A stretch of 64,000 bases of DNA from NCBI GenBank assembly GCA_002245135.1, contig NGBS01000874.1, forward strand, positions 186,001 through 250,000, read 5' to 3'. Under the pieces are notes generated by a model. It ran no database searches and was not told the origin of the DNA. It was given only the letters and a program-made list of their open reading frames with translations. Of the stretch, positions 27,684-53,872 are shown piece after piece. How positions within the stretch are numbered: the stretch's first letter is position 1; each line of letters opens with the position of its first letter. The translations under genes were made by a program, and so were the position numbers. Source of the DNA: Proteromonas lacertae. Its lineage: Eukaryota.

Positions 27684-30600
27684 ATGTCGAATATTACTCT
27701 TCCGATAGTAATATGGAGTGGGTATTTGTTGTTTGGATTTATCATATAGACCTCCAGAACATGCAATTGAAACAATGATTCAAAACGAAGATGGAAGTAA
27801 AGTTGTTACACTTTCTTCAAAAGGTGAAATAATTATATGGAACGTTAGTATTAAGAATGAAGGTATTTAATGATGTTTAAAATATTGTTAAATAGATTTA
27901 CTTTTAACTCCTTTTATATATCTTACTCCTCCACATTCATATTTTGCACAAATAGCTATACATAAAGATATGAACAAGGAAATTGTTGTATGTGTAACAA
28001 AAGATGGTGACGTAGTTACTTATGATTTAGTGGAAGGTTAGTATATATATATATAATATTTAATACATATATTATAGTTGTACAAACTATTCACAGAATT
28101 TACTTTCTGGTTGTGAGAATCCTCGACATATTCTTCTGTTAGAACCAATACCATGTACTATAATCTCAAATCAAAGTAATGTAATGGAAATATTCAATTG
28201 TGAGACATTAGAATATATATCCTTTGTAACACAACATAATGATTGGTTAATTGATATGTGTGGAATAGGTCAAATATCTTAATAAATACACATATGTATA
28301 TATAACATTAGGAGCTGACAATAGATTATATTTATGGAGTTATAACTATATGAAACAAGTGTGTAATCCATCCACTAATGTTTTAATTCAAGATAATGAT
28401 GATTCTTATTATATGTATATATATTTATTATTAATTATTATATTAGTGGTTTATGCAGTTCTTTTGATCATAATTATATAATTGTCTATACACCTGATCA
28501 TTGGAAGTTTATAAATATAAGTACGTTGTTTTGTGGTTCAGAATTATTAACTCCTTCTTATAGATTACAGATAGCAAGTATTATAATTAAGAAAATAAAA
28601 TTTATAAGTAAGAATGAATATATTGTTTATTCATCAAATGGATATGCAGAAATATTCAGATATGAAGGTATATATATATAATTATTGCTATTTGAATAGA
28701 TGAATCAAATTGTGAGTTAGTTTATACAATACAAAGACCAGTTCAAAGTTATGGAAAATATGAATATTTTATACACAAATATACAGTTAATGATATTAAT
28801 AGAAATAATAATAATAATAATGAATTAGAAAGTAAAGAAATATATTACTTATTAGCAACAAATGGTGATGATACTATATATTATTATGTTTATCCTGACA
28901 ACATCAATATCTATCCTAAATTCTATTCATTAACAAGTATATGGAGAGAATCAAATAATAAACATATGTCAGTATGTAGTTGCTATATTCCTCCAACAGA
29001 TTATCCTGGTATATTAATAGAAGCAGATATAGATTGTATTATAACTGCAAAAGTATATATATATATATATATATATATTATTATTATTATTATAAATAGT
29101 TGTTACCTACTGATGAATCTCCAGTAGTATTTCAAAATTATGAAATTTTATTTAAAGATGATATTAAGAAGGCACAATGTACATGTGTAGATTATATAAA
29201 AGTTGATAAAAACAATTATATAATCATTTCGACATACAATAATGGTTTAACTCAGTTGTGGGGTTTATCATATAATGTGAATAATATAAAGAACAATATT
29301 TCTCCCTATTTGGATGTAAAGCAGTTGATTAAGGATAAAGTATCTGATTATGCAATTAAAACAATATATAAAAGTAATACTAACCAATCATTTTCTGATT
29401 ACATATTGTTATTTTGTTTAGTTTGTGATGATTTATCTGTTACATTATATGGTGTAAAAAAGAATGATGTAAATACAGTAAGCTCAACTGGAAATATAGT
29501 AAATGTATATAGATTGTATCCAGTTTACTGGTCATAATCACAAGATCATAGATATAAAATGGTTATTACATTTAGGTTATATAGTAGTATGTTGTGAGAC
29601 AGATTTTTCATTTGTTTGGGATATTTACACCGGACACTTAGAGAGATATATTCCTACATCAATAATACTACCAAACAATCCACATATTAATATACATAAT
29701 AATATTAATAATAATATCACTATTAAAAGTCATAATCGTCAGCCTTCTTTACCTAATGTTCCACTTACTAATTCTGTTTATAATAATAATGGTTTAAATG
29801 TTCAATCTCCCACAACAACAACAACAACAACAACGACAACTTGTACTACTAATGGGAATCCATCCACCCCATCTATTGGTTATAATAATAATAATTCAAC
29901 ATCTTCATTACCTATAACTCCTCGTCCAACTCCAAGAGATATAAATGATATTAATAGTTCATTTACTAATAGTCCAATTCATATACAACAACAACAACAG
30001 CAACAACAACAATTACAACAACAACCACAAGATATTATATGTAGTAGATTATTGAAATTAGATACAGTATCTGAACAAACTATATACGATGTTGATATTA
30101 ATAATTCAACTAATCATGGTACTCATGGAATGACAGCCATATCAATACATGTTAAATCGTATTCAAGGTTCTTGAAAGATATTTATTCAAAATTATCTGA
30201 AGAAGATAAGAGGATTAATCCATACTTTATATCTTTTTTTAGTTTTGTTATTTTATATAAAGTTCACTTTAATTATCCTCTTTAAGGGTTTTTATCTCAT
30301 TTATTCTTATGGAATATTGATAATTCATTATGTCATATTTATAATTCTGGTCTTGAATTAGATACACCATCAGTTATGGTTGATTATGGTTTAACAGGAG
30401 CAAAGAATATTGTGTCATGTTATTTTCCATCCCAAATAACTAAAAGGAATTGGTACAAGTATATATATATATATATATATATATAATGTAATTATAATGA
30501 TGATAATAGTATATCGTCATACTTTACTGCATCCTATCAATTATCAATACTTTCAATCTTATTCTCCATGATTAGAAATGAAAGTGATGATGATGATGAT

Positions 30601-32097
30601 AATAATCAATATATTGAATCACTAATAGAAAAATATGGATCATTAATACCATATAAGTTGATAGAAATACCAAATGATACTTCTGATTCATCATCTTATA
30701 CAGTATATATATATTATTTACATTTAGGAATGTTCAATTGATTATTTATCAATGTTCTTTTATGATCATTGGTTTGAATCACATAAAGCAGTTTCTTATA
30801 TAATGACTAGTTTATTTTCAAGATTGACTGTTGATGAAAAGAATGAATTAGTTAATAAATGGCAGCCAATTATTCTGTCATTCTCTGATATTAGATTAGA
30901 ATTATCAGATGAAGATAATATTGTAGTTCCTACTTTGTATGCTGATGATATTATATCATTCAATAGAAACGAGTTACAGAATTTATCAAGATACAAGCCA
31001 TCAATTACTGAAGAAACCGCTGTTTTTATTTTTGGATTATTATGTATGTTATTCTCTCTATTGTTATTGTTATTATAGCTTTATCTGAGATTGATCTTAT
31101 TACTCCAGCAATAGCTAATAAGTTGATATATCCATTGAATTACTATATATTCTATGAATTATATCACTCAATCTTTGCATTAATGGTGTTAGGGAAAGGC
31201 TTTTTCTTGTGGAGACCATATTTATCTGTATAATTCTTAATCATATTTGATTGATATAGAACTATTATGGAAATATTCAATTATTTTTAAATCACCTATT
31301 TCAATTAATGTGTTGTAATGAAAAGAATGATTTATTGCAGATGTTTATAAAGAATACAATATATGAGATTGGTGTTAGAGAACCTGAATTAATAGTACAA
31401 ACAGTCTGTATATTCTCTTATATATATATATATATATATAGCATCAGAATCGTTAAGAAATAGCCAATTAGGGTTAATATATAATGTAACAGCACTTCGT
31501 TCATTAGTTCGTGTGTTATCAAAAGCGCCAATTCATTTTTTCCCATATTTGAACTCAGCAATAGAATGTCTAATGAAAAGTATTGATCCATCAAGACCAA
31601 CTTTAAGAAAAAATGCAATTATAATAGCAAAAGTAGCTATTAAATCATTATTAGAACATTATCCAATGGTTAGTTTTCATCAAGATACTCAAAGATTAGC
31701 AATTGGTACAATAGAAGCATCAATTATTGTGTATGATTTAAGAACTGCACAGAAATGGAGAATATTAGAAGGGCATACTGCTCCATTATCTGTTATATCA
31801 TTCTCTTCTGATGGTTCTACGTTAGTGAGTTATAGTTATCAGGAATCCTCTGTGAAGGTATGGAAAACTGGGAATACTGGTTTTTTCAGTGGATTATTTG
31901 ATGTTCAAGGTAAGTGCATGGATACTATACCAGTACCACATACTACAAGAGAATCGAAATTACCAGATATCTTCAATAACTGTAAAATGCAAGTATTCTT
32001 AGTTTGTATTAATATATTTTCATAGTGGACTTCACCTAGAACGATATTATTAACATTAGAGACGGGAGAATCTCAAAGTATTACACTTAATTTGTAA
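27684..32097 (+). CDS. WDR7: WDR7/WDR72 (rabconnectin-3 beta)-like WD40 protein
   Basis: N-terminus MSNITLPIVIWSGRPPEHAI...GEIILW. C-terminus SIDPSRPTLRK...YPMVSFHQDTQRLAIG...VYDLRT...LEGH...WTSPRTILL. Many short introns. Confidence 0.85.
30229..30285 (+). other. Putative U12-type AT-AA intron (57 nt) in WDR7
   Basis: Sequence ATATCTTTT...TTCACTTTAAT-TATCCTCTTTAA. Removal joins INPYF|GFLSHLFLWNID in frame. A weak GTTTTG..AG alternative also keeps frame. Confidence 0.65.
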
Positions 32098-32192
32098 TTT
32101 CTATTTGTATTTCTTTTTGTTATTATAATTGTTTTTTAAAATGACAAATAAACACAGTAAATACAAATAAAAACAACAGTACTGTCTTTTTA

Positions 32193-34387
32193 TTATTTAT
32201 GATAATTAAATCTCACTTTCAACAAGTATCTAAAATTGATTTGAGCAACATTATAAACAATAAACTCGTTATATAGCAATGAGCCTTTTTTATCATCATT
32301 TATCATCTTACCACATGGAACAATTACACCATCATCTAAAGTAATTGAACCTTTAGGATCAGGATAGTTACAACCACATCCTTTAGTACTGCTACATCCT
32401 TTTGGCAACTTATCTGCATTATAATCACTATATAATAAATCTTACAAAATAATATTAAGAAAAATAAATATTAAATAAAATAAATAAATAAATAAAAAAG
32501 ATATATTTGTTTTTCCTAAAGCAACTTCACATAACAGCATTACACCTTCATTACTACCATCATAAGTATTACAATAACAATAATTTGCACTTTTAGTAAC
32601 ACAATCAGCGAAGTAAACACCTTTGCCAAACATATATCCAGTCACTGGAGCTTCTGGTGGTGCAATTCTTAACCCTTGCGATAATATACCAACAAAATTA
32701 GTCAATCTACTTCCATGCCATAATAAATTGATATTTCCAATATCTTTAACATAATTACGATATCTTTTATCAACTTCTGGCTTGTTTACTTTAAATGCTT
32801 CCAATAATTCCAATTTATAACCAGTATGTGTTTTACCACATGTATTTTGAATATAATTCATTATTACATGATAGTCATTTTCTGTTGTATTTATTGGCAG
32901 AATATCACATTCCAATTGATTATAATATCTTGTAATTTCATCAACATTACTCTTTTCTTCTTGAATAATTTTGGTGGTGATTTTCATATCAGAAAGTGAA
33001 GACAATAATGTCAATTTGGATTTAACTTCATTTATATCATTAATTAAATGATCAATCATCTTACTAAAACCAAAATCATGAGGAATATGAGAATAAAATT
33101 GACTTGTCAAATCCATTAATACATCTCTCTTTGGTTTATTTTTACTAACTTCATCAGCTATTCTCTTCAATATTTCATACCCCTTTTTAATGGAATTATC
33201 ACTTAATTTTCCTAATGGCATCTTATTAGCATCATATCCTATCTCTACCAATGTTCTCTTTAATAAATTCTTATCAAATATCATTTCTACTAATCTCTGA
33301 ACTTGTAATGGTAATTTACAATCTTCTATTTCTTCATCATTATCCTTTTCATCTTCATCATCTTCTTCATCATCTTTATCCTTTCCATCATCATCTGCAC
33401 TTTCCTATATATATATATATATATATTATATTATATTATATTATATTAATACATCAACTTCAATAAGTGTATATTTTCCTTTCTTTTCTTCAAATTCTTC
33501 TCCCCATGTATTACCAGTTTTAGCATTGAATTTTTTCATAAATTCCCTTTTCATATCATCTAAACTACCACTCTAAATATATAAATATATATATATATAA
33601 ATATATATTTTTTATACAGAATAGCTTTTTTGACCATCATAACCTACTCTTCCCCATCTAAAGAAACAATGATAACTATTTCTACACTTTATTAGCTGGC
33701 AAATATAGAATTTGTTATTATTGTCTTTTAAATTTGTTTGGTTCAATGTTGCATGCCATACACAATCATTGTCTTTATATACTTCACCACCTCCAAATTG
33801 AGATTGAGCAAATTTATCGACATGAATTGTTGGAAATTTCTTTTCTTTTCCTTTTGCTATTTTATCTGGAATTACTATATCTACTGCAGATTTTGATGAT
33901 TTTTTTGTAGCTCCTTTCTTTTTAGCTGGTGATGAAGAAGGGGATGGAGTTGGAGATGCAGCTTTAGTAGCACTAGCATCTTTCTTTCCTTTTTTTGCTT
34001 TAGATGTAGGTGTTGCAGCTTTTCTTTTAGTGCTCTTGGATTTAGAAGCTATATCTATCAAAAAATCTTCAATTTTAGCTTTTCCTTTTTTATCAATCAT
34101 CACATCGATAAAATCTTCGCTAATAAGACGTTTTTGCACATCCGCATCATCTAAATCTACTTTCTAACAAATCATATATATAAACAAATACATCCTTCAC
34201 CTCATCAACCGAATCTACATTACAGATGATGTACGGATCAGCCTTCATACTTGTTGTGACTTTTCCTCCATTACTTCTGATAGTTTTCTCTAATTGACTC
34301 TTTGTGTGGTTTTCAATGTTCTTAGTCACAAAAAATATCAAATCTAATGGGGATAAACACCTAATAAATACCTTTTAATGAAGACAT
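32193..34387 (-). CDS. PARP: Poly(ADP-ribose) polymerase (BRCT-like + WGR + regulatory + catalytic domains)
   Basis: Motifs LNQTNLKDNNNKFYICQL...RWGRVG, KMPLGKLS, LWHGSRLTNF...GLRIAPPEAPVTGYMFGKGVYFAD...KSANY and LLYNEFIVY. The H-Y-E triad is intact. Confidence 0.95.
32442..32504 (-). other. Putative U12-type AT-AA intron (63 nt) in the PARP catalytic domain
   Basis: Sequence ATATCTTTT...TTTTTCTTAAT-ATTATTTTGTAA. Removal gives EVALGKTN|DLLYSDYNADKLPKG, matching the PARP motif spacing. Confidence 0.85.
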
Positions 34388-34606
34388 AACAAGATATTAT
34401 TCAAATTAGAATCAAGTTTAAGTTTGAAAGAATATTTTTGGAGGTTAGTCAAATATATGGCGCTACAGCGTTAACCTATATCATATTGTTAATTGTTCAT
34501 TGATAAACATGTTGCATACTTAAAATCATGGATTCATTATATCTTTCTCTCATTATTAGATATTTAAAATTATATTCGTTTCTTTTGATCAAGCCAAATA
34601 ATTCAA

Positions 34607-37566
34607 ATGTTTAAGAAACCAAAAACTGAACAAAGTAAAAGCAAAAGACAGAAAAATAGAGATGAAAACGAAGAAGAAGAAAAAATCGTAATTAAAAGAC
34701 CAAGACTAGATGTGAAAGAAGAGGAAATTGATGTATGTTGCCTTTTTTTATAGTTTAGGAAGAAGAACAAGAAAGATTAAGAGACCAAAAAGAAAAACAA
34801 GAATTTGAAGAAGTATAACTATTCATTATTATACTCTTTTTCATAGAGACTACTTAAACGTGATGATGAAAACACAAGAAAAGTATTATTTATATTTATG
34901 TACATATGTTAATAGTTTGCTGGTAAAAAGGTAGTAGAGACTGCATCAATTGCTACATTAAGTCAAGCAGAGCGAGATGCAGCTGTTCCAGAGTTAAGAC
35001 AACAGAGTAGACAAAAATATTTGCTGGAAAGGAAAGAGAAAGAAATAGATTTGTTGAGATGGAAGATTAGAGATGAAGAAGAGTTATTCAGGCAAGAAAA
35101 ACTTACAGATGTAGAAATAAAAAGATTAGAAGCTAATAAAGAGCTTGTAAAAGAATTGGAAAAAGAAATCTTAAAAGAAGATAATGATGAAAATTATCAT
35201 ATTCCAGAAAGTTATATTGATGAATCAGGAAAATTAGACAAATCTAAAAAAGAGTCATTATTAAATTCTAGATATACAGTAGAAAAAGTAGAAAAAACAG
35301 AACAAGAGTTATGGGAAGAACATCAGACAGAAGCAAGTAAAGTAGACGTAATGACAAATAAGAAAAAAAAGAATGAATATGATTTAGTTTTAGATGATGA
35401 AATAGATTTTATTAGTGACAAAATTATTAATGGAGATTTATCATTGGAAGAATTAGATGAAGAAATGGAAAAAAATGAAGTATAAATTATTATTATTGTA
35501 ATAATAGAAAAAACAAAAATTACAAGATATTCAAGAAGTAAGAAAACTATTACCAATCTATAAATATAGACAAGAATTTATAGATGCAGTACAGGAACAT
35601 CAAATATTAATCGTCACTGCAGAAACTGGTAGTGGGAAAACTACTCAAATACCTCAATATTTATGCGAAGTAGGTTATGGTAAAATAGGAAAGATAGGTT
35701 GCACTCAACCAAGAAGATTAGCAGCAATGAGTGTCGCAGCTCGTGTAAGTCAAGAAATGAATGTAATATTAGGAAATGAAGTAGGTTATAGTATAAGATT
35801 TAATGATTGTACAAGTGATAAAACTGTAATAAAATATATGACAGATGGTATGTTATTAAGAGAGTTTTTAACTGAACCTGATTTAGCTAGTTATAGTGTA
35901 ATGATAATAGATGAAGCACATGAACGAAGTTTACATACAGATATATTATTAGGATTGATTAAAGATATTGCAAGATTTAGAGATGATTTGAAAGTGATTA
36001 TTTCCTCTGCAACTTTAGATGCTGAGAAATTTAGTAAATATTTTGATGATGCTCCTTTATTTAAGATTCCTGGAAGAAGATTTAATGTTGATACATTATA
36101 CACAAAACAACCTGAAGCTAATTATATTGATGCTGCTGTATTATCTAGTATAAATATACAATTAAATTATATTCTTTAAATAGTTTTACAAATTCATATT
36201 TCTCAACCTTTACCTGGTGATATTTTAGTGTTTTTAACTGGTCAAGAAGAAATAGAATCAGCAGTTGATAATCTAAAAGCAAGAACAAAAGGTTTAGGCA
36301 CAAAAATAAAGGAATTAATAATACTTCCAGTTTATGCCAATTTACCACAAGATCAACAAGCCAAGATATTTGAACCAGCACCTAGTGAAGGACGTAAAGT
36401 GATTTTAGCAACAAATATTGCAGAAACATCCTTAACAATTGATGGTATAAGATATGTAATAGATACTGGATTTTGTAAGCAAAATGTATATAATCCAAGA
36501 ACAGGAGTAGAATCATTAGTTGTAACACCAATATCACAAGTATTATTATTGTTATTATTATTATTTATAGGCAGCAGCTGATCAAAGAATGGGTAGAGCT
36601 GGAAGAACAGGTCCAGGAAAAGCTTTCAGACTATACACAAAATGGGCTTATGAGCATGAATTGAATGGTTATACAGTTCCAGAAATACAAAGAACTAATT
36701 TAGCATCTGTTGTATTAATGTTGAAGTCACTTGGAATAAATGATTTGATGCACTTTGATTTTTTAGATCCTCCTCCAGCTGAAACTATTATAAAAGCGCT
36801 TGAACACTTATACGCACTTGGTGCATTAAATGATAGAGGAGAATTAACGAAATTAGGTAGAAGGATGGCAGAATTTCCATGTGATCCACAAACAGCCAAA
36901 ATGATAATAAAAAGCGAAGATTATGGTGTAAGTAATGAAATTATAACTATAGCAGCAATGCTAGATGTAAATGGTGCAGTGTTTTATAGACCAAAAGGAA
37001 GTGAAAAAGAAGCAGATAATGCTAGAAAGAACTTTGAAAGAAGTGGTGTTGGTGATCATATTGCTTTATTAAATGTTTATAATGAATGGACTGAGAATCA
37101 AAGATCCAATCAATGGTGTAGACAGAACTTTGTTCAAGAGAAATCATTAAATAGAGCTGAAGATATTCGTGAACAACTTGTAAACTTATGTTCAAGAGTA
37201 GAAGTAGAAATTAAAAGTGATGTTAACAATCTAATCGCAATAAGGAAAGCACTTTGTGAAGGGTATTTTATGCATACAGCGAAAGAACAGAAGAGTGGTT
37301 CATATGCTACTACAAGGCATAGACATACGACTAATATTCATCCACAATCTTTACTATTTGACAAAGAACCAAAACCTGAATGGGTATTGTATCATGAATT
37401 AGTTTTTACTACTAAAGAATACATGAGAACTGTTACTGTAATAGATCCTAAATGGTTGATGGAAATTGCACCGCATTATGTGGGGAATTTGAAAATTAGT
37501 ATTGAAGAGAATAAATTGAAAATGCCAAAAAATACTGGAAAATCAAGGAGAATAGATGATATATAA
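34607..37566 (+). CDS. DHX16: DEAH-box pre-mRNA splicing helicase DHX16/Prp2
   Basis: Motifs [84 protein letters not shown] and [12 protein letters not shown]. Confidence 0.92.
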
Positions 37567-37671
37567 CTTTTTTTTGTTTTGTTTATATAATGCTTAGGAA
37601 TAAAAACACACATTTTCTAAAAAGTAATAAATTAAGAAAGCAAAATCAAAAAAGACTATGTAATCTTCTTT

Positions 37672-38396
37672 CTAATACTGATATTCTAATATTGGCTCTC
37701 CTACATTCTTTATTTCTTCAATCGTACATTTCAAAGCGAATACTTTACTAATTATAATCTTAAAAATCTTTCTAATATTTATTGAATGACTAGCAGACGT
37801 AAATACCAATGGAGCTTTCATTGCTTTTGCAAATTTTCTTGCAAATTTACATATATCTTCTTGTTCTTCTTTTGTCAGTTTGGTAAATTGATCATATTTT
37901 GTACCAATCAAAAATGGCAAAGCAGAATGGTTCAATCCTCTCACTTGCTTATACCAGTCCTTAATACTATATATAATAAAATAACAACATAAAACTTATA
38001 TATATATATATACTTTCTCAGTGTACTATTTCTAGTCAAATCAAACATAAATAGTATTACTACTGCATCATTGCAAACTAAGGGCAGCATATTGCTAAAT
38101 TCTCTTTGACCACCTAAATCCCATATGCTGAATGTGATTTCAGTATTTTTCAGTAGAATAGTCTTCTCCATAAAATTAACACCTAATTTTTAACAAAAAT
38201 CAATAATACCTAGTGTTTGGATATAGTCTTCATCGAATTTATTTTCTACATACTTTACCATCAGTGAAGTCTTACCAATTTGAGCTTCACCCACCATTCC
38301 AACTTTTATCTACAACAATAATTATTTATAATATACTGTTACACTATTTTTTCCTTCTTCATGAGTGTTATCCTCATGAGACTCTTCATCAGACAT
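37672..38396 (-). CDS. TEM1: Spg1/Tem1 septum/mitotic-exit small GTPase
   Basis: Motifs [65 protein letters not shown] and [17 protein letters not shown]. Confidence 0.93.
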
Positions 38397-38445
38397 TTTT
38401 ATAAAAAATTTCAAATGTAGGGTTCAAGTTAAAAGCTTGTCGATA

Positions 38446-41400: not shown

Positions 41401-43506
41401 ATATTTCAAATATTCATACAGTATTTACGTGTTCATAATATAAGACAATTGCAATTAATCTCATCAGTTGCTGAAACCTTTGATTTATCATTATATCTCC
41501 TTAATAAAGTATTGAAGGATATAAATCATCGATTATTAAAACAAATATATCACCTATCTATCATTATTCAAGATAATTTCGTGTTTTCTAAACATATTTT
41601 ATTACCAACTTTGAATTTACATTTTAATAAATTAAGATATAAAGTCCCAAGAGTAGTTTGTAATCATTTGGAGTTCCTTTTCTGCTTATTTGATAATCCA
41701 AATATTGGTTTGTATAAGTTACTAATGTTAAACTTTTTACAATATTTTAACATTGATTTATGTAACTTCACAACTGAATATGATATATTTTCACCTAATT
41801 GTGTGAATGAGTTTAGAAAGAGAAAGAAAATTAGATATTATTTCATATCAGCTATTGTTATTCTAATACAAAACCCAGAATTATATTCATTACTCTCTTA
41901 TTTATCAAAATTAGATGAATATTCTGAAATTGTCACTTATTACAAACAATTTTTGAAGTATTTATGGTATTTCAATGTGAGAGATATGTTTAATAGATAT
42001 TATGTTGTGTTAAAGAACTTAAAGGAGAATAAATTAAAAGATTTCCCTAAAATACAAACTCCAAGTGTTTCCACAATATTATGTACATCTGTAGTGTCAA
42101 ATAATCCATTATTCTATCATGTTTCTCCTATAAAACCATTAAAAATACCACAATCAGAAAGACAAACAACTCCCATAAAGAAAATAGATAATTCAACAAA
42201 TATATCATCTCCTAAAATCATCTTATCAGATGTATTGAAATTGAAAATTACTAATCATATGTATGATAGTGATGTTGATAGTAGTATAAGTAATAGTAAC
42301 AATGCATCATTATTAACCTCTCCAATAAAGAATGAATCTCTTTCAATTTCCATTGATAATAACAGTAATTGTAGTAGAAGAAGTGAAAGTGTTGATTCTA
42401 TTGAATTAATATCAATTATTGAACCTTCACCTACTAAATCATCATCATCTCCATCTCCACCACCACCACCACCATTATATCCTTCCAATAGTAGTAATAA
42501 TTCAAGTTTGAATTATTCAACTGTTAGTTATAACAATACAGTTACAGATTCTCCATCACCACTTAAGACTTTGCATAAGTCACTACTGTTAGACACATCC
42601 ATTACTGATGATAATTTATCATTTGAATCAGCTACTACCAACAATACAGATAATACAGCTGCAAATACACCTAATACAACTGTAAATAATACACCTAATA
42701 CAAAAATGAATAATACAGCTAATACAACGTTGAATATGTCAAGTGAAAATTCGTTATTTGTAATTGATCCAATGATTTATAAATATGAATTCATCAAAGA
42801 AATGTGTGAATGGATTATTCGGTTCTATTATAGTAGTTATGAAATATTCAATAAGAATATATTGGATTATTTATTAACCATATTATATGAAGTATATATA
42901 TATATATAGATAGATAGATATTTATTTATTTATGTAATTTAAATAGTGTTTAATATTAATGGAAGGTGAAACGAAATATCATAAAATTGTTCCTTTTATA
43001 TGTAATACACTTTATCATATCACTTCAAAAACATCAATTCCACCAAAAACAAAAATTGAAAGGAAATACAAACAAATATTAAAAATACTATCAACTGAGT
43101 TGAATAAAAACATTGAAGATGTTGATAAGATTATAAAGAAATATAATAAAACCAAAAAGTATATTTATTGTCATAATATATATATTTACATATGAATAGG
43201 TTTAAGGATTATCAATGTGAGACTGATCCATTTTATTTATCATTTATAGATATATATCACGTATTTCTTAATTCATCTCCGTCAATTGATTCGTTTGTAA
43301 CTTCTGAAAGTTCAAAAACTGTTAATTTTGAGATAAAATCATCATTTAGTTCAAATTATAATGTTAGTAAAACAACAGGTCCAGGTAAACTATCACCAAC
43401 TACGCCTCATTCACATTTATCAATGATGACTCCCAAAGAAAGCGAGAATACGAGAAGAAAATCTTTAGATTTGTTATATGCAGCAGATGAATTTGGATTA
43501 ATATAG
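38446..43506 (+). CDS. Large protein resembling CPLANE1/JBTS17 (C5orf42); 3' end uncertain
   Basis: Segments EPWKSIKFYG..VILLD, LLTSEGEL, WMLSRSIILT..SGKLKIYT and VANLIVSYLN...WNYATAIRFYKLSGREERAVEIL fall in the order I recall for CPLANE1 blocks. Short introns, with a frameshift near 41160. The similarity is from memory and was not searched. Confidence 0.55.
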
Positions 43507-43908
43507 AATATGAGTATTAATTTTTAATAGTTTAAAATATTAATGATTATATTGTTTTTTTGTAGGAGTTATAGTGTAATAACAATATCAAAAAGAAATT
43601 AAAGGCTTTAGCTATGCAAAATCATCTAAAGAAAGTATATTTATGTGAAGTAAGGCTAGCAGGATAATTTCAAGTAATTTAATATGTAAATCATGGATAT
43701 GACTTACAATACAGTGTTTAAATAAAAAGTGAAAGAGTAAATCTTAAGATAGTAGTTTGTTACACAATTGTAGGTTTAATACTGTATATAATAATGAGTT
43801 ATCATCAGGTAAGGCTGTTTTTAACCTAACTAGCAACTTTAGCATTAAAACAATTAATAAGTTTACACTAATTTCAAATTTTCGTTTAAATAAACAGTTA
43901 TTCTTAAA

Positions 43909-45483
43909 ATGGCTGTGGGGGATGATATTTTTTCTTTCAGTACAATATATTTCCCAATTTGTGGTGGTGAATTATCAGACGACTGGGACTGTGGTGTGTT
44001 TGGATTGTTAATTCTCAACTTAATAGTCACATTCATTTCAGGGATGACATTAGTTACAGCATCATTTCTGATATATTTAATAGCTCCTATAATCATAAGT
44101 TTATTAGTATCAGGTTGTATTGGTGGTTTGGTCTATGTAACATGTTTTCCAGATCCGACAACAGATGGAGGTGGTGCTGGTTGTTTAGCGCTTGTAGGTA
44201 TTATTTTAATGTACTGGATGGATCCATTTGGTTATAAGCAGTTTTTTAGAGAGAAGAAATATATAGATTTCTTCTTGTGGGGTTCAGTGACAGCTGCTTC
44301 ATTAACAGGTTTAGTTAATTTAATCAATTTCATCAAATATTATTGTTTAGCTATTTATCATTTATGTATGTTAATTGGTTATTGTTGTATTTCAATTTTT
44401 GATGCTGATTGTTGGTCTAGTTGTAAATCTAACTGTAGTGAATGTTGTTCATCATGTTATAATGGTTTAACGAAATGTTGTGAATATTTGATTGCATGTG
44501 TTTATATATCGTGTAAAGGAGTGTATAAATGTATGGAAGGCGTTTGTTTATTTATATATGATGGAATATACTATTTATATGACCAATGTAGTGAATGTTG
44601 TTGTTGTTGTAAAGAAAGAAGTCATAGTTATGAAAATCATAAACATGAGAATGTGATATCTGAAGGAATAAAACATATATTTCTATTTCTATGGAAATCA
44701 ATATTATTTATAATGATTTATAGTTATAGAATAATAAGATATTGTTTATATTATATAAGTTGTAAAAAGATAAGATGTTTAGAATCTAATAAATGTTGTG
44801 AATGTTGTAGTTGTAGTTGTAGTAATATATTTTCTGATGTAGTTGAAAATCCATATAATGAATTATTAAAAATATCTTGTATGAAAAGAGTAGAAAAAGG
44901 TCGAAAATATATATTTAAAAACATATTGAAAGGATTTAAAAGATTATATAGATATGAAATATTCCATTATGCTATTTGTAATATAATAGAAAGTGTAATA
45001 AAAAGATTATATCTAAAAATCTTAGGAGATAAAAAGGGAAGTGTATATCCAGATGGTGATGATCCAAAAACAATAAAAATAAAAATAGATGATAAAGATG
45101 ATGATGATGATGAAAATAATAACAATGGAAATAAAATAATCACATCATCTAAGGGAAGTAAAGTACCAGTTGGATCTAAAGGAACAAAAGTGGCAATTAC
45201 ATCCAAAGGAACAAAAGTAGTAATAAGTGAAGAAGAAGAAAAACGAAAGATAATTGAAGACAATCTAAATATTCCAAAAGATGAGAATAACACTCCTTTA
45301 TTCTTCCGATTACCTTCAAGAGACTCAATCAATTCATCAAGTGAAAAGAAGAAATCAATCATAAAACTAAGTATAGTAAATCTAAAACGACCATCTATAT
45401 ATCAATTACCTTGCTCATCTACATCAAACAAATCATTTAGACCTCCACATCTCACTCCAATTGATATTCCTGGATCTATTTAA
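43909..45483 (+). CDS. Intronless multi-pass membrane protein with Cys-rich region (copy A)
   Basis: 524-aa ORF with about four N-terminal hydrophobic helices, many CC/CxxCC clusters and a charged C-terminal tail. Confidence 0.8.
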   Translation: MAVGDDIFSFSTIYFPICGGELSDDWDCGVFGLLILNLIVTFISGMTLVTASFLIYLIAPIIISLLVSGCIGGLVYVTCFPDPTTDGGGAGCLALVGIILMYWMDPFGYKQFFREKKYIDFFLWGSVTAASLTGLVNLINFIKYYCLAIYHLCMLIGYCCISIFDADCWSSCKSNCSECCSSCYNGLTKCCEYLIACVYISCKGVYKCMEGVCLFIYDGIYYLYDQCSECCCCCKERSHSYENHKHENVISEGIKHIFLFLWKSILFIMIYSYRIIRYCLYYISCKKIRCLESNKCCECCSCSCSNIFSDVVENPYNELLKISCMKRVEKGRKYIFKNILKGFKRLYRYEIFHYAICNIIESVIKRLYLKILGDKKGSVYPDGDDPKTIKIKIDDKDDDDDENNNNGNKIITSSKGSKVPVGSKGTKVAITSKGTKVVISEEEEKRKIIEDNLNIPKDENNTPLFFRLPSRDSINSSSEKKKSIIKLSIVNLKRPSIYQLPCSSTSNKSFRPPHLTPIDIPGSI

Positions 45484-48226
45484 TAATAGATGCAAATATC
45501 TCTCTTTCAATTAAGCTAAATACTATTAAAAATATAATCTAATTCTAATTGAAGTAGTTTGGTTTAAATTATTCTAAAAATTGATAATGAAAGTATTTAT
45601 TTCATCAGTGTTATGTGAAATACTATCAAACAACAATGTATAATTATTGAGAAAAACATAAGTTACTCTTTAATCTATTCATTACATTCATTAAATCGTG
45701 TAACTGAAATACTTGAAAAAAATCTAAAATTGTGAGAATGAAAGGTGTGATTAGATATACTTTTTTGTTAAGCAGATAAACTGATTCAAGAGAAAATGGT
45801 TTTAGGCAATCAATACTAGGAATATAATCATAGATAATTTAATTCTAAAAGCCTATATAAAAACATGAGCAAAGTAAATAATAAAAATAATGATAATAAT
45901 ATTAAATATTTAAAGAATCCTTTGATATTTGATTTTTTTGTTCTTTTGATAATAATTATCTATATTTTCTTTCAATGTTATTGAAATTTTCTTTAAACTT
46001 CCAAACATTTCTTTGTCTTTTATCATTAATCTTAATCATGTTTCATATAATTCATTCCCTACTTTATGTTTCAATCTATCTTCATTTTTTTGTTGTCAAT
46101 AATCGATTTATCAACTCTTTCATCATATCATCTGTTATGAACTCTTTATTATATCTACATCTCATGATGTTATTTAGAGTTTTAAATAGATTATTATATT
46201 CATTAAATGGTAATCATTTCATATAATACACAACCAACTAACTATATTATACTTCTCTCATTCAAGCACAAATCACATATCTTTACATTCACTTTCATTC
46301 TCAAAAACAATATTTCTACTCTTTAAATTACCAATTGTCATACCATTCTGATATAAAATCAACAAATTATAGCAAATGCTGCAAATTATGCTAATTGTTG
46401 TAATATCCTCAAGATATCAACATGAATCCACTGTCAATATTCAAATAACACATTTGAAAGGGACAGATAAAGTAAAATGGACAATCTAATCATGCAAAGT
46501 TATTTTCAACGAATTTCAAAGGTTTCTTCTCTTTTACAGAAAAGTATTTAAACAGATTTATTATTCTAACAACATTTTGACGTTGACCTTTCATTTAAGT
46601 TCACCATTGCTCTTTTTGACTATTGCTTTAACCTATAGTAATAATTAATTTAATATACTTCATAGCCACATAAAGATATCGAGTATAAAACTTCGTCTTC
46701 AACAAAATTTAAAAATGACATTTTTAAATTTCAAATAATAGCCGTTTTATTTCAGTTACACTATTTAATGAATGTAATGAATAGATTAAAGAGTAACTTA
46801 TGTTTTTCTCAATAATTATACATTGTTGTTTGATAGTATTTCACATAACACTGATGAAATAAATACTTTCATTATCAATTTTTAGAATAATTTAAACCAA
46901 ACTACTTCAATTAGAATTAGATTATATTTTTAATAGTATTTAGCTTAATTGAAAGAGAGATATTTGCATCTATTATTAAATAGATCCAGGAATATCAATT
47001 GGAGTGAGATGTGGAGGTCTAAATGATTTGTTTGATGTAGATGAGCAAGGTAATTGATATATAGATGGTCGTTTTAGATTTACTATACTTAGTTTTATGA
47101 TTGATTTCTTCTTTTCACTTGATGAATTGATTGAGTCTCTTGAAGGTAATCGGAAGAATAAAGGAGTGTTATTCTCATCTTTTGGAATATTTAGATTGTC
47201 TTCAATTATCTTTCGTTTTTCTTCTTCTTCACTTATTACTACTTTTGTTCCTTTGGATGTAATTGCCACTTTTGTTCCTTTAGATCCAACTGGTACTTTA
47301 CTTCCCTTAGATGATGTGATTATTTTATTTCCATTGTTATTATTTTCATCATCATCATCATCTTTATCATCTATTTTTATTTTTATTGTTTTTGGATCAT
47401 CACCATCTGGATATACACTTCCCTTTTTATCTCCTAAGATTTTTAGATATAATCTTTTTATTACACTTTCTATTATATTACAAATAGCATAATGGAATAT
47501 TTCATATCTATATAATCTTTTAAATCCTTTCAATATGTTTTTAAATATATATTTTCGACCTTTTTCTACTCTTTTCATACAAGATATTTTTAATAATTCA
47601 TTATATGGATTTTCAACTACATCAGAAAATATATTACTACAACTACAACTACAACATTCACAACATTTATTAGATTCTAAACATCTTATCTTTTTACAAC
47701 TTATATAATATAAACAATATCTTATTATTCTATAACTATAAATCATTATAAATAATATTGATTTCCATAGAAATAGAAATATATGTTTTATTCCTTCAGA
47801 TATCACATTCTCATGTTTATGATTTTCATAACTATGACTTCTTTCTTTACAACAACAACAACATTCACTACATTGGTCATATAAATAGTATATTCCATCA
47901 TATATAAATAAACAAACGCCTTCCATACATTTATACACTCCTTTACACGATATATAAACACATGCAATCAAATATTCACAACATTTCGTTAAACCATTAT
48001 AACATGATGAACAACATTCACTACAGTTAGATTTACAACTAGACCAACAATCAGCATCAAAAATTGAAATACAACAATAACCAATTAACATACATAAATG
48101 ATAAATAGCTAAACAATAATATTTGATGAAATTGATTAAATTAACTAAACCTGTTAATGAAGCAGCTGTCACTGAACCCCACAAGAAGAAATCTATATAT
48201 TTCTTCTCTCTAAAAAACTGCTTATA
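44233..48226. repeat. Long inverted repeat: arms 44233-45711 and 46748-48226 (about 1479 bp each), spacer about 1036 bp
   Basis: The translations are identical from YKQFFREKK to the stop. Identity continues about 230 nt past the stop, with one mismatch seen near 45697. Confidence 0.93.
45910..46721 (-). pseudogene. Decayed GN-type pseudokinase relic in the inverted-repeat spacer
   Basis: Broken minus-strand frames read MSFLNF...LCGYE|intron|VKAIV, GMTIGNLKSRNIVF, VKICDL, VGCVLYEMIT and LPFNEY...KELINRLL...EDRL, with multiple stops and frameshifts. Confidence 0.7.
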
Positions 48227-48559
48227 GTGAAACATATCTAACATATACACAGCTATTATAATAGAAGCAAAGAATAACATAATAAAGCAACCATATCCTA
48301 AAGAATCCTTTATCTTCTTGTTACAACATAAAACATAAAATACTCCACTTACACACACTGTTATTATACTATATATTACAATAGGGGCTGCTAGATATAT
48401 CAGTAACGATATAACAACCAATATCATCCCTGAAATGAATGTGACTATTAAGTTGAGAATTAACTTACCAAAAATGTAGCAGTTCCAACCATTTGAAAGT
48501 TTCCCTACATAAAATGGAAAATATATAGAAAGAATAAATGGAATTACTTTTAAATTCAT
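46976..48559 (-). CDS. Intronless multi-pass membrane protein with Cys-rich region (copy B)
   Basis: 527-aa ORF with a divergent N-terminal ~110 aa. The remainder is identical to copy A. Confidence 0.8.
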   Translation of the reverse strand: MNLKVIPFILSIYFPFYVGKLSNGWNCYIFGKLILNLIVTFISGMILVVISLLIYLAAPIVIYSIITVCVSGVFYVLCCNKKIKDSLGYGCFIMLFFASIIIAVYMLDMFHYKQFFREKKYIDFFLWGSVTAASLTGLVNLINFIKYYCLAIYHLCMLIGYCCISIFDADCWSSCKSNCSECCSSCYNGLTKCCEYLIACVYISCKGVYKCMEGVCLFIYDGIYYLYDQCSECCCCCKERSHSYENHKHENVISEGIKHIFLFLWKSILFIMIYSYRIIRYCLYYISCKKIRCLESNKCCECCSCSCSNIFSDVVENPYNELLKISCMKRVEKGRKYIFKNILKGFKRLYRYEIFHYAICNIIESVIKRLYLKILGDKKGSVYPDGDDPKTIKIKIDDKDDDDDENNNNGNKIITSSKGSKVPVGSKGTKVAITSKGTKVVISEEEEKRKIIEDNLNIPKDENNTPLFFRLPSRDSINSSSEKKKSIIKLSIVNLKRPSIYQLPCSSTSNKSFRPPHLTPIDIPGSI

Positions 48560-48681
48560 ATTTTAAAAAGTTAACTTTTTGATATTATTCTAGAAATGTT
48601 GAAAATAATATGTATTTCATTATAATTTACAAAAATAACTTGAAAATAATAGAAAAATAATAGAAAACGTTAGTATCATTC

Positions 48682-49673
48682 TTAATTATATTTCATCTCA
48701 ATCTCATGTACAGCATTATCAAGTTCAATCCACGATTCAGGGAATAAATTACCAGAAATAATCCTTCTAGCCATATCCAACTTTGGTTCTTTGTGCATTG
48801 GGTTATTACACAAATCTATAGTCTTAGCATTCTTTTTCGTACTATTACTACACCACGATTCACACCATAACCATTCTTGTGGTAAAGAATAAATAGGAAC
48901 TCGAGTTTGTGCATAATTAGGTAAATCTTGATCTAAATTAGACAAGGAGTTTGGATCTCTTGACAAAGTATCATATATTGATCTTAATATATCACCAACA
49001 CCTCGTTTCCTAAATACATCTAAATCTACTACATATAAAGCACTAATATGATAAGGTCTACCTTGTAAATGGTCAGCCCAATAACCTTGTCTCCAGAATT
49101 GAAATCCTAATGTGTCTTTATTACTATCACAGAATGGAGTATAAGCATAAGGAGCTCCATGTAGATCTATTTCATATAATTCTTTTAAATCACTTCTCAT
49201 TACTTGATCTGCATCCACATAGATTACTTTCTTTAGATTTAATGGGAATAACACATCTAAAAAGAGTATTTTATAAGCCCAAATGATTCTTTGCTTCTCT
49301 GTTTGTGGATGTAACCATTTTGGCCATTTGTAAGTGACTAATTCAACTTCACAACCTAATTCTTTAGCATAATGAGGAATAAATGACTAAATAATAATAA
49401 TAATAATATATTTAAATATATATATATATACTTTAAATGCAGGTGAAAAGAAATTTTCCACTAACCAAAACTTGACTGGATTTGAAGTTCTTTTTACCAC
49501 AGACATCATCATGATCTTAATGAATCTTTCATATAGATGACCTGAAGCTAATGAGAAGATGTTGATTGTTTCATTTGCACCTATTTTTATATTCTTTCCT
49601 AATATTGACTCTTTTACTTTTCCAAACCAACTCTTTGATACTTCAGCTTCTTCTATTTTTATAATTATTATTA

Positions 49674-49711
<38 letters not shown>

Positions 49712-52595
49712 GTTTTTCATTTTCACTACTTTCTAAAACAGATTCACTCTCTTTTCCTTCATTCTTAACAACATATAAAGAATCATAATTAGCATAAAAA
49801 TCACGAATTATCATTTGTGTAGATGTAACAGTATGTGTTCTAATATCTTCAATATCTAAATACTTTATTTTATTCACAATATCTTTATCGACTATAGAAT
49901 ATAATTCTTTTGCTCTTCCTTCAGCTAATTCAATATTCCATACACCAGCATCTCCTTTCAATTGATAATATGCCATATTCTGCATCACTAATGAATCAGT
50001 TTTGTAATCTTTAGATTTCATAACTAACTGTAAACCATGCGGAGGTGTACCACCATGGGTTAAATCAATACAACTACCTTGTACTACAATATTAGTTAGT
50101 TTATATTCAGCATAAACTAGTCCTCCAGTTTGTAAAACATTATCTGAACTCATTTGTATATTATCTAAATCGTGTTCTGCTTTATAAGTTTGAACAATCC
50201 ATGATTCAGGAGTTTCTGTTCCCATTGTTAATACTTGTTTCTTGGGAGGTTCTAAGAATAACGCTTCATTATTTGAATTAATTCCAACAAATCTGTAAAA
50301 TCTTTTTAGAGGAAATGAACTGATTTCTCTAGATGGATTTAAGTAGATATATATGTCTATATAATCTTTCAAACCATTTCTTAATGTGTCAATTATTCCC
50401 ATTATTCTCTGACATTCTTCACTTAGTGGATTTACTATTGCTTCTATGCTTACTACTGGATAATTCTTATCTTTCTTAACAGCTTCATTTTGTTGCTTTA
50501 ATAATACATATTTATATTTCTTAGGTAATTCTAAGGATCTAATTGAAGAGGATGAATGAGTATGAATGTAAGATAGAAATAATAAATATGTAATGGTTTC
50601 ACTATATTAATAATAATAGTATAATATTATACAATTTATCTTTATGTGGTTGACCTACAATAGTCTTATAAGCTTGATTATTACTGTTTTTCTCTGTATT
50701 CTCCAATATTCCTAAGTCTTCACTTAATATTGTATCTATTTCTCTAATTATTCTTCCATTATAGAAGAGTGTTGCTACATCAGCTTCAATATTGAATGAA
50801 GAAGGTATTTCTGGTGGAATATATAGATTTTTAGCTATTTATAATATATATATAAACATACACTCAATCATTTCTTTCAAAGTCTTCTCATTATCATATA
50901 ATCCTTTATATCTCATATAAAACAACTTCTTCACTAATTCAAGTGTAATTTCAGTCTTTGCACTTTTATATCCGATTAAATCACTGAAGAACAATGAAAC
51001 ATACATTGAAGCTTTTGCAACATCATCATAATCATATCCAATAGAAATAGCTCTAGATATAAAATCTCCAATTTCATTGTTGGGTAATTTTGAATTATGA
51101 ACAAAAGAAACTCGAACGTTTATATTGGAGAGAATATGTTCAAAGAATTGAATAGTGAATTCCCACATCTAGTAATACAATAAAATACATAAATATATTT
51201 ATACTTCTGATTTACTATAATCACCATATAAAATGTAATTATGAATAAAAATATTATCTAATGGAAGTTTATTATAATAATATTTAATATGATTCATATA
51301 ATATTCAGCTGAATTTGTCATTTCAGGACTGTATGATAATAATAATACATATTCTCTTTTCTATAATATAAATATATAAATATATATAATATACATCAAC
51401 ACTTTGTATGAATTGAGGATGGTATTTCTTATAAGTTCCACTTGATTTACAATAATATTCCAAAATATCCGTAGAATCAGTAACTTCACCATTATAGACT
51501 AATCTTTGTAATTCATATAGTATTGGACCAATGTAATTCATCATTGAATTTAAGTCTGCGTTTGGATATACTAATCCATTAATTGTCATTAATGGAAATG
51601 ATGTTAAACCTTTGGAGATTAGATAAGATGTTGATATTCTAATTCTATCATCAACTATATCATATATAATAATAATTTTTAATATTGATACATTCATCTG
51701 TCTTTATTATATCTAATAATTCATCATATTTAATTGGTTTAATTGTTTTACTCTTTTGCATTGCAGTTACTCCTTTTAGTATAAGATCTTTCACTTTGGG
51801 TACTTCTTGAATTGATTGGAATTGATTTAAAAATGATTGAATTACTTGTTTAGAATATTTTGTGTATAAATATAAGAACACTTTATTGAATATTCTTGTA
51901 TTTATTTTACTCTCTTCTATATATATATTAATATTGTATATGTATATACCATCAATAGTATTACTTTCCATCTCTTCACAGTTATTCCAATCAGTTCTAT
52001 TGCATTTCACTAAGTTAGGATCACTTAATATTACACCAAATCTAACAGGAACATTCATACTTACATAATATCCTATTCCTCCTAAAATATTCAAACCTTC
52101 TACTGTAGATGGATTAATGACATATATCACATTATATAAGTTCTTTTTAACAGAAGGTAATTGCCAACTTGGTTGTAATATATATCTTATTGAACCACTC
52201 CATCTTTTATAACGTGAATCTTTTTCTAAGTTGTTAATGAAATAGATGGATTGTTTATAGTTATTATCTAGTAAGTTGATTCTTATTATATCACTTACAT
52301 CCTGAGATATTTCATCATCTTCATCTTCATCGTCTAAGTCTCCAAATATACTACCTAATTCATCATCTTCTTCAGATTTTTGTTTTTTGTTTTTCTTATT
52401 TGAATTATACATCTTCTCATAATGACGAATAATTTCTTTATCTAAATCCAATTTGTTTAATAATAAATCATTATTTATATCGTTCATAATCATCTTTTGT
52501 ATTTTAAAATAATTGAAATTGAATGGATCTAAATAGATACTTTGGCCATTAATTAGAAGTTCATTAACACCAGCTTGAATATTGGTTTGTCTATT

Positions 52596-52664
<69 letters not shown>

Positions 52665-53872
52665 GCATCTATATACAGTGAATCTAATTCCTTCTGCACT
52701 TTTGGCTCAACTTTTACTCTTGATATTGAACTAACTAAACTTGGAAAATTCCAACTAATATCTCTCAACTTATCAAAAGGTTCAGCTGATTGTGTAATCA
52801 TTTCTATACTCTGAATACCTAAATTCTGCATTTCCCATATATCAATAACTGAATTCTCTTCTTCAGATAATAAACTCTCTTTGAATTGAATGATTTGATT
52901 GGTTTGATTGGGATATCTCTCTTTAAGTTTGGTTATATTGAATCCTTCAATTATTTCATGTATTTCATCTTGAGATGATTTATCTGATTCTTCTGTGTTT
53001 GTGTTTGATTTGGTATTATCTACTTTTCTATCATCTAAGGTTTTATATTCCATTTAAACAACAGAATTAATGAAAATAATTAAATTCATTCATTTAAAAA
53101 ATGATATATTTTTTATATCTAAAAACACTGAATAACCTACTAACTCTGTTTTATCTCTAATTATTTCAGTTGGAATTACTCTCAAGATGTAAATGAGTTT
53201 ATTTTCTTTCACTAATGGTAATATCTTTTTATGATATTCTTTGAGTTGTTTAGATGTAGGATTTCCATAGAGCACTATCTTATAGTTTGAATTCAAATCA
53301 GAAAATGGATGGATATGATCACCGTTGTACATTCCATTTCTTATTACATTAGTATCAGCTATGTAACTCGTTAAAGCTTTTTCTATATCTTTAATATCAC
53401 AATAACTCGTTTGTCCAATATCGTACCATAAACCTATCAATAATCAGAATATTATAATAAATACCTTTACACTTGCTGAATCCCTTTGATAATTTTGCTA
53501 TTTCATATTGGGCTTGAACCGCAACACTAGATCCTTTCATACTTACTCCATACTTTACAAAACTAGCATGGTGCTTTGATAATATCTTTTCTACTGTTTT
53601 GAAAATATAATCATCGATTAACTCTGGGGTTGTAGAATTGAGATCTTCAATTACTGGGAATTCTTCAATGTAACGCCAATACAGTTCAGGCTGAAACTCG
53701 CTTACAATTTCCCTACATTGTCATAATTGTGAATATACCCTGCTTCTTCAATTGAACTAACCTTTGAACGTGGCCAACTACTAATCAGTTTAGTCTCAAT
53801 TCTTCTGCTAAATTCTGCATTGCAAAGCAACAGAAGAGATAGAAGTGCTAAGACAAGCGATAATTTTATCAT
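48682..53872 (-). CDS. UGGT: UDP-glucose:glycoprotein glucosyltransferase
   Basis: Signal peptide. Motifs [89 protein letters not shown] and IDLCNNP. Confidence 0.96.
52599..52662. repeat. (AAT)n microsatellite inside a UGGT intron
   Basis: About 21 perfect AAT units between the GT and AG of a minus-strand intron. This explains the poly-Ile ORFs in the track. Confidence 0.9.
53054..53107 (-). other. Putative U12-type AT-AA intron (54 nt) in UGGT
   Basis: Sequence ATATCATTT...TTTTCATTAAT-TCTGTTGTTTAA. Removal gives [13 protein letters not shown], matching the conserved K[NS][MT]EYKxxDD motif. No GT-AG solution preserves this motif. Confidence 0.87.

What the first reader, a model, noticed from the sequence alone, without database searches (positions are those of the whole stretch)
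30229..53107. A class of AT-AA minor-type introns with a fixed 12-nt branch-motif-to-3'-end spacer in three unrelated genes
Seen in sequence: WDR7 (+, 30229-30285), PARP (-, 32442-32504) and UGGT (-, 53054-53107) each contain an insertion with the same structure. It starts ATATC[T/A]TTT, contains a pyrimidine-rich ...TTAAT, and ends exactly 12 nt later in TAA. The lengths (57, 63, 54 nt) exceed the usual ~30-nt GT-AG introns, and all three are phase 0. Established: U12 introns use RTATCCTT donors and a TCCTTAAC branch site close to the 3' end, and AT-AA ends are normally rare exceptions. Inference: this lineage has an AT-drifted minor spliceosome in which AT-AC has been systematically replaced by AT-AA and the 3' site is set by distance. 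All three non-canonical introns I found in 64 kb are AT-AA, and I saw no AT-AC intron.
Basis: partly seen in the sequence, partly recalled or inferred. Interest (0 to 1): 0.92.

Follow-up and report, generated by a model that had tools for sequence, protein, structure and literature searches.

The report
AT-AA minor introns in AT-rich protist
Three genes of an unnamed AT-rich protist are interrupted by short segments with the signals of the rare "minor" intron class that end in AA instead of the usual AC or AG, which suggests, untested by RNA, a lineage where this normally rare ending is common.

Summary
The three segments exist at the stated coordinates. The pattern has 4 matches against 0.29 expected; the fourth is antisense to a long ORF. 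For PARP and UGGT, homolog spacing fixes intron length (161 of 161 and 107 of 107), and every GT/GC-AG alternative deletes conserved residues. A PARP relative has an AT-type start at the same site and AAA/AAG, not AC, before the next exon. The WD40-gene intron has a weak GT-AG rival (30242-30286). These are best read as A-type (AT-AN) minor introns. AT-AA ends and an 11-13 nt branch distance are published, so the 12-nt spacer is not new. The frequency is unusual: 3 of 3 here, against 3 of 120 rows read for Blastocystis ST1. That rests on n=3, with no RNA, genome, snRNA gene or organism name. Systematic replacement of AT-AC is unproven. The scan noted a similar AT-AA-rich set on other DNA (Rozella, e1-9948028, not checked).

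The parts
30229..30285 (+). AT-AA candidate minor intron, 57 nt, phase 0, in a large WD40 gene (WDR7 label recalled, not from a call). Branch-type TTAAT at 30269-30273.
   Evidence: downstream frame after AA open for 66 codons versus 24 after AG and scores +6.4 versus -5.7 bits as coding; no homolog test of the junction
30242..30286 (+). Rival canonical GT-AG parse (45 nt) for the same interruption; keeps the frame and adds four codons
   Evidence: donor score above only 5 of 94 modelled donors, acceptor above only 2 of 94
32442..32504 (-). AT-AA candidate minor intron, 63 nt, phase 0, inside the PARP catalytic domain. TTAAT at 32458-32454.
   Evidence: 161 of 161 matching homologs have the 7-residue spacing that only the 63-nt intron gives; Pfam PF00644 positions 2-121 before, 124-199 after; relative
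53054..53107 (-). AT-AA candidate minor intron, 54 nt, phase 0, inside a conserved UGGT motif. TTAAT at 53070-53066. Can slide +2 to AT-AT with the same product.
   Evidence: 38 rows spanning the junction, from 80 loci searched, no gap at the junction; 107 of 107 matching homologs
27684..32097 (+). Host gene 1, modelled span: large protein with a C-terminal WD40 region
32193..34100 (-). Host gene 2, modelled span (5' end probably further upstream): PARP with regulatory and catalytic domains
48682..53540 (-). Host gene 3, modelled span: UDP-glucose:glycoprotein glucosyltransferase

Best explanation
The three segments are likely A-type (AT-AN) minor-spliceosome introns, removed by the ordinary U12 mechanism, whose loosely constrained last base has probably drifted to A in this AT-rich genome. 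Shown by sequence or calls: the U12-like donor, the TTAAT motif 12 nt from the end, the need to remove exactly 63 and 54 nt from PARP and UGGT, and a non-AC end in a PARP relative. From published work: U11/U12 recognise the donor and branch motif, the 3' site is chosen about 11-13 nt downstream, A(-2) pairs with the branch A and the last base pairs with base +1. Inferred: with A at +1 the last base is weakly selected. In Blastocystis ST1, 48 of 120 rows read end in something other than AC, 41 of them AG. G-to-A change from AT-AG, alongside C-to-T changes at donor +6 and the end of the branch motif, would give the window's pattern without a re-engineered spliceosome. AT-AA is then probably common, not necessarily universal, among this genome's minor introns.
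For: Pattern excess. Homolog spacing 161 of 161 and 107 of 107; contiguous Pfam positions. All 10 PARP and 5 UGGT GT/GC-AG alternatives within the searched range delete conserved residues. 0 of 94 modelled GT-AG introns have TTAAT 12 nt from the end, and none starts GTATC. Relative P0001 and its 4 cluster members read I-S-F straight after the conserved exon end, as the window does. P0257 and 2 members begin M-K before the conserved D-L-L-Y, so the last in-frame intron codon is AAA or AAG; these are paired with P0001 by equal longest-contig sizes 11532, 5873, 5940. ST1 ATATC introns: AC 72, AG 41, AT 4, AA 3 of 120 rows read out of 339. Published rules: PMC3584512, PMC8280824, 10.1101/212811.
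Against: The sample is three introns, and one has a canonical rival and an interior that scores between coding and intron (-0.01 bits/nt; intron 95th percentile -0.08, coding 5th percentile 0.16). The UGGT donor has A at +6, seen in 0 rows of the ST1 file as held. Plain drift would give AT-AT as often as AT-AA (intron interiors 48% T, 40% A), yet none of the three needed introns is AT-AT at its best donor. ST1's branch spacer is mostly 5-7 nt (read by eye from the same rows), unlike the 12 here, so ST1 is an imperfect model. No call names the organism. The relative's end may be AG.
Confidence: 0.65

Rival explanations
1. Real minor introns, but the AT-AA run is a small-sample effect: genome-wide the class is a mix of AT-AC, AT-AG, AT-AA and AT-AT, and the WD40-gene segment may now be spliced as GT-AG (30242-30286).
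For: n=3. A canonical parse exists for one. The relative's codon allows AG. One unneeded AT-AT candidate, 22933-22992, scores 0.16 bits/nt and is not excluded. Phase-0 TAA ends are conspicuous, whereas stop-free 3n introns are easily missed.
Against: At the ST1 rate (3 of 120), 3 of 3 has p 1.6e-5. The scan of 17 sense-strand RTATCHTT donors allowed every A-N end and found no other needed intron-like case. The GT-AG rival has very weak sites.
Confidence: 0.15
2. One reading: the minor spliceosome of this lineage has been re-tuned so that AT-AA has replaced AT-AC, with a rigid 12-nt ruler.
For: 3 of 3 end in AA with the same spacer, and none in AT although T is the commoner intron base. The scan noted an AT-AA-rich set in Rozella (e1-9948028, unchecked).
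Against: 12 nt lies in the published 11-13 nt optimum. AT-AA introns are spliced by the unmodified human minor spliceosome. The donor and branch changes seen are mostly C-to-T, which would need no compensatory change (wobble pairing, recalled). The relative may use AG.
Confidence: 0.12
3. Consensus errors: the true ends are AG (one G lost from AAG|G) or AC.
For: Two of three ends are followed by G. The window shows apparent frameshifts elsewhere (about 575 on -, about 23400 on +), so it is not error-free.
Against: The UGGT end is followed by ATG and needs a different error. ORFs of 900-1170 codons are intact, so errors are sparse, and hits at exactly two acceptors are very unlikely.
Confidence: 0.04
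4. Non-canonical introns removed by the major spliceosome, or copies of a mobile intron, with U12-like words arising by chance in AT-rich DNA.
For: The genome is about 26% GC and ATATCHTT-type words are frequent. No minor snRNA is in hand.
Against: The three interiors are unrelated in sequence (by eye). Donor, branch motif and spacing match U12 rules jointly, and the major introns here use GTAT..TAG without that motif.
Confidence: 0.04

Closest known systems
A-type (AT-AN) U12 introns of animals and plants (PMC8280824; PMC1557818 Table 2; PMC10639083 Fig. 6)
   Same: ATATC-type donor, branch motif near the 3' end, A at -2, variable last base; AT-AA is the commonest non-canonical minor end in both kingdoms.
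   Different: There all non-canonical ends together are about 4% of conserved minor introns; here 3 of 3 are AT-AA, with T or A at donor +6 and TTAAT as branch core.
Blastocystis ST1 minor introns (PMC5608401, S11 Data; PMC10639083)
   Same: Minor introns about 1% of all introns, nearly all AT-started, longer than the major introns, 49% phase 0, last base relaxed (AC 72, AG 41, AT 4, AA 3 of 120 rows read).
   Different: ST1 introns are mostly 37-44 nt with ATATCC donors and a spacer mostly 5-7 nt; AA is 2.5%. The window's are 54-63 nt, spacer 12, all AA. Kinship to Blastocystis is only a lead: low GC and longer, variable introns resemble the tortoise isolates of PMC12129017.
Physarum polycephalum transformed minor system (10.1101/2020.10.12.336362)
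   Same: Donor with C or T at +6, narrow branch distance (9-12), many non-canonical ends.
   Different: AT-AA is 27% of the non-canonical U12 subset only, and the branch motif is TTTGA with compensatory U12 snRNA changes; no such change is shown here.
Scan note e1-9948028 (Rozella allomycis AT-AA introns)
   Same: Reported set of about 19 minor introns mostly ending in AA.
   Different: Other genome, a fixed 13-letter start, unchecked AI note; not evidence for this window.

Membership tests
U12-type A-type (AT-AN) intron | Extended 5' splice site RTATCCTT-like | tested here: met
   ATATCTTT twice, ATATCATT once: 7 of 8 positions each; +6 T is accepted in Physarum, +6 A is absent from the ST1 file as held
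U12-type A-type (AT-AN) intron | U12 branch motif close to the 3' end | tested here: met
   TTAAT core in all three (preceded by CT, TC, CA); 0 of 94 GT-AG model introns have it at that distance. The upstream TCC part is degenerate.
U12-type A-type (AT-AN) intron | Branch-to-3' site distance about 11-13 nt, with A at -2 | tested here: met
   12 nt after the motif, 13 after its last A; optimum from PMC3584512
U12-type A-type (AT-AN) intron | Removal restores the conserved reading frame with no canonical alternative | tested here: inconclusive
   Met for PARP and UGGT; the WD40-gene intron has a weak GT-AG alternative and no homolog test
U12-type A-type (AT-AN) intron | Excised from mRNA at these boundaries | not testable with these tools
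   No sequencing run was listed
U12-type A-type (AT-AN) intron | Genome encodes U11, U12, U4atac, U6atac and minor-specific proteins | not testable with these tools
   No genome held; only the 64-kb window could be scanned, 0 Rfam hits
U12-type A-type (AT-AN) intron | Position conserved as a minor intron in relatives | tested here: inconclusive
   Protein-level only: PARP relative reads I-S-F at the donor and M-K before the next exon; 14 of 14 UGGT relatives in one cluster start at the Met after the intron, which the ATG alone could explain
Introner-type mobile introns | Near-identical copies at unrelated sites | tested here: not met
   The three interiors share only the splice signals (by eye; no alignment run)
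Genus Blastocystis (host lineage) | Proteins group with named Blastocystis proteins | tested here: inconclusive
   No named close relative; the quick UGGT tree leaves the window unresolved; Atlas uninformative

The most novel reading that the evidence does not exclude
This protist lineage has a dense set of minor introns (3 of about 97 in the window) in which AT-AA is the majority ending and AT-AC is scarce, a reversal not found in my literature searches. Such introns would be invisible to standard annotation, and the last-base pairing of minor exon ligation would be dispensable for a whole genome.
Probability: 0.5. Interest if true: 0.68.

Novelty: new variant of a known kind. Interest (0 to 1): 0.5.

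Why it matters
If AT-AA is the majority end, this would be a natural test of how much the pairing between the first and last intron bases matters in the minor spliceosome, which has only been modelled for A-C (10.1101/212811). It would also mean that annotation pipelines accepting only GT-AG, GC-AG and AT-AC truncate a few percent of this lineage's intron-bearing genes, because each phase-0 AT-AA end here reads as TAA. Surveys of minor-intron presence could undercount AT-rich protists for the same reason. If the frequency is ordinary, the finding is three more A-type introns.

Tried and rejected
No genome was held, so no genome-wide motif or snRNA search was possible. No sequencing run was listed for 29500-34500; this is no evidence either way. 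Rfam found nothing in the window at gathering or E 0.1. A DHX16-like ORF found no related loci in prokaryote or viral contigs. The 80 metagenome UGGT loci are 36-72% GC; in the 38 rows that span the junction there is no intron. The longer-PARP search found no annotated full-length copy among the best 120 listed. The quick tree (careful search unfinished) and two Atlas searches did not name the lineage. Five short peptide motifs were absent from the first 4 MB of the Proteromonas supplement of PMC12129017; the file is cut, and that paper's genomes and annotations were too large to read. The perfect-looking donor ATATCCTTT at 28217 was rejected: its interior scores as coding (0.50 bits/nt, coding median 0.53) and a 43-nt GT-AG intron follows. 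Sites 6744 and 31795 were rejected likewise. Other AT/GTATC picks of the parser had canonical or no-intron alternatives where I inspected them (not all were inspected). PDB and Pfam did not test the WD40-gene junction. P0256, a second PARP relative, starts one codon into the exon and says nothing on the end. Literature searches for a lineage dominated by AT-AA listed none in their titles or abstract starts, and the passages read gave none; the library lacks most subscription journals.
Full report
Observation. All three segments are as described. They are 57, 63 and 54 nt, phase 0, start ATATCTTTT, ATATCTTTT and ATATCATTT, carry TTAAT ending 12 nt before the end, and end in TAA, which is an in-frame stop if retained. 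The combined pattern has 4 matches against 0.29 expected; 0 of 100 shuffles reach 4. The pattern was fitted to the three, and the fourth match (39428-39381) is antisense to a long ORF.

Context. The window is 24-29% GC. A self-trained parser gave 22 gene models with 94 GT-AG introns: median 35.5 nt, 81 of 94 starting GTAT, 86 of 94 ending TAG. With any A-N end allowed it chose the three stated boundaries. Its priors for AT introns were my own and loose, and it made other picks that are mostly spurious. None of the 94 has TTAAT 12 nt from the end.

Are they needed? PARP: of 244 fetched homologs over 250 aa, 201 have the upstream anchor and 161 match both anchors; all 161 have a 7-residue spacing, which only the 63-nt intron reproduces. 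D is the second commonest residue at the junction position (16, after E 134). Pfam PF00644 positions run 2-121 before and 124-199 after. UGGT: of 188 fetched proteins, 107 match the motif and all have the 2-residue spacing that the 54-nt intron gives; 38 tblastn rows from 80 loci span the junction without a gap. All 10 PARP and 5 UGGT GT/GC-AG alternatives within the searched range delete conserved residues. The UGGT intron can slide by 2 nt to AT-AT with the same product, at the cost of the donor motif. The WD40-gene intron is weaker: a 45-nt GT-AG parse (30242-30286) also keeps the frame, though its donor beats only 5 of 94 and its acceptor 2 of 94, and no homolog of that region was available. 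The name WDR7 is recalled, not from a call.

Relatives. P0001 (74% identical, unnamed) and 4 cluster members read I-S-F directly after the conserved exon end and then end, as the window's read-through does. The next exon, P0257 and 2 members, starts M-K then D-L-L-Y. They are linked to P0001 only by matching longest-contig sizes. Because homolog spacing leaves no room for K, that codon is likely intronic, so the relative's intron ends AA or AG and not AC. This is independent of the window's assembly but does not separate AA from AG. Fourteen of 14 members of the closest UGGT cluster begin at the Met after the intron, which is compatible but uninformative.

Missed AT-AC introns? Of 17 sense-strand RTATCHTT donors in modelled genes, 7 have a frame-keeping A-N end with a branch-like motif. 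Three are the finding. Sites 28217, 6744 and 31795 score as coding (0.48-0.52 bits/nt). Site 22933 (AT-AT, 60 nt, read-through open) scores 0.16 and is unneeded but not excluded. The WD40-gene interior itself scores -0.01, PARP -0.41 and UGGT -0.21. Weaker donors were covered only.

What is known. AT-AN is a named class including AT-AA (PMC8280824, passages). AT-AA is the commonest non-canonical minor end in animals and plants, where all such ends are about 4% (PMC10639083, passages; its preprint, passages; supplement listed only). PMC1557818 Table 2 lists 8 AT-AA cases (passages). The branch-to-3' optimum is 11-13 nt (PMC3584512, passages). In Physarum AT-AA is 27% of non-canonical U12 introns (preprint passages). 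In the yeast structure A(-2) pairs with the branch A and the last base with +1 (10.1101/212811, passages). Blastocystis ST1 has 346 U12 introns and the full machinery (PMC5608401: passages, section 8, supplement 12). Its intron table holds 339 rows starting ATATC; I read 120 (1-60, 151-180, 310-339) and counted by eye AC 72, AG 41, AT 4, AA 3; the file is cut within the ST7 sheet. Low-GC tortoise Blastocystis with longer, variable introns are described in PMC12129017 and its preprint (passages); 'minor' occurs 0 times in either main text. Their genomes and annotations could not be read and may bear on the claim.

Statistics. At the ST1 rate, 3 of 3 AT-AA has p 1.6e-5; at the intron A frequency, p 0.066. 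The 95% lower bound on the AA share is 29%. Three minor introns among 97 has p 0.07 at ST1's density. Three equal spacers have p 0.04-0.11 for 3-5 allowed values. So the AA share is probably far above published lineages, while 'fixed spacer' and 'systematic replacement' are not established.

Mechanism. Most likely ordinary U12 splicing: recognition of donor and branch motif, 3' site by distance, A(-2) kept, last base loose. The T at -3 matches this genome's TAG habit. AA may derive from AG by G-to-A change, which fits ST1's frequent AT-AG and the relative's AAR codon. This path is inference, as is the wobble tolerance of the C-to-T changes (recalled). Against simple drift, no needed intron ends AT.

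Limits. The window has apparent frameshifts elsewhere, so error cannot be fully excluded. A Blastocystis-like stramenopile is my lead (about 60%), from GC, intron profile and recalled UGGT signatures, not from a call. The scan holds an unchecked note on AT-AA-rich minor introns in Rozella; other look-ups gave nothing bearing on this window.

Verdict. Observation confirmed; interpretation partly supported; new variant of a known kind; interest 0.5.

Noticed in passing
window about 575 (-): An aminotransferase-like gene (label recalled) changes frame in a conserved stretch with no intron: one extra base, assembly error or pseudogene.
   Followed up: partly
window about 23400 (+): Frame change at a run of five A between ORFs 22209-23477 and 23399-23848, followed by a Thr/Gln/Ser tandem repeat (23818-24267); possibly a homopolymer error.
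   Followed up: partly
window 29490-29530 (+): The WD40 gene needs a frame change here: either a very short GT-AG intron (19-25 nt) or an indel.
   Followed up: partly
window 43894-45483 and 46976-48562 (-): Two tandem, intronless, Cys-rich membrane-protein ORFs with different N-termini and an identical C-terminal part of about 400 residues.
   Followed up: no
window 20305-21054 (-) and 24610-25305 (+): Near-identical inverted duplicate of a multi-exon gene part.
   Followed up: no
window 13094-19404 (-): About 2000-codon, nearly intronless surface-protein-like gene with Cys/Trp-rich repeats and transmembrane-like segments.
   Followed up: no
window 1553-8114 (+): Kinase-like N-terminus fused to many leucine-rich repeats, with a repeated non-LRR module.
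   Followed up: partly
window 22933-22992 (+): Unneeded AT-AT candidate with donor ATATCTTTA and TTAAT 13 nt from the end; read-through is open.
   Followed up: partly
PMC5608401 supplement 32, ST1 sheet: 41 of 120 ATATC rows read end AT-AG, a pairing called disfavoured in PMC3584512, and the branch spacer is mostly 5-7 nt, shorter than the published 11-13.
   Followed up: partly
whole window: Many major introns are GT(AT)n...TAG microsatellite-like.
   Followed up: no
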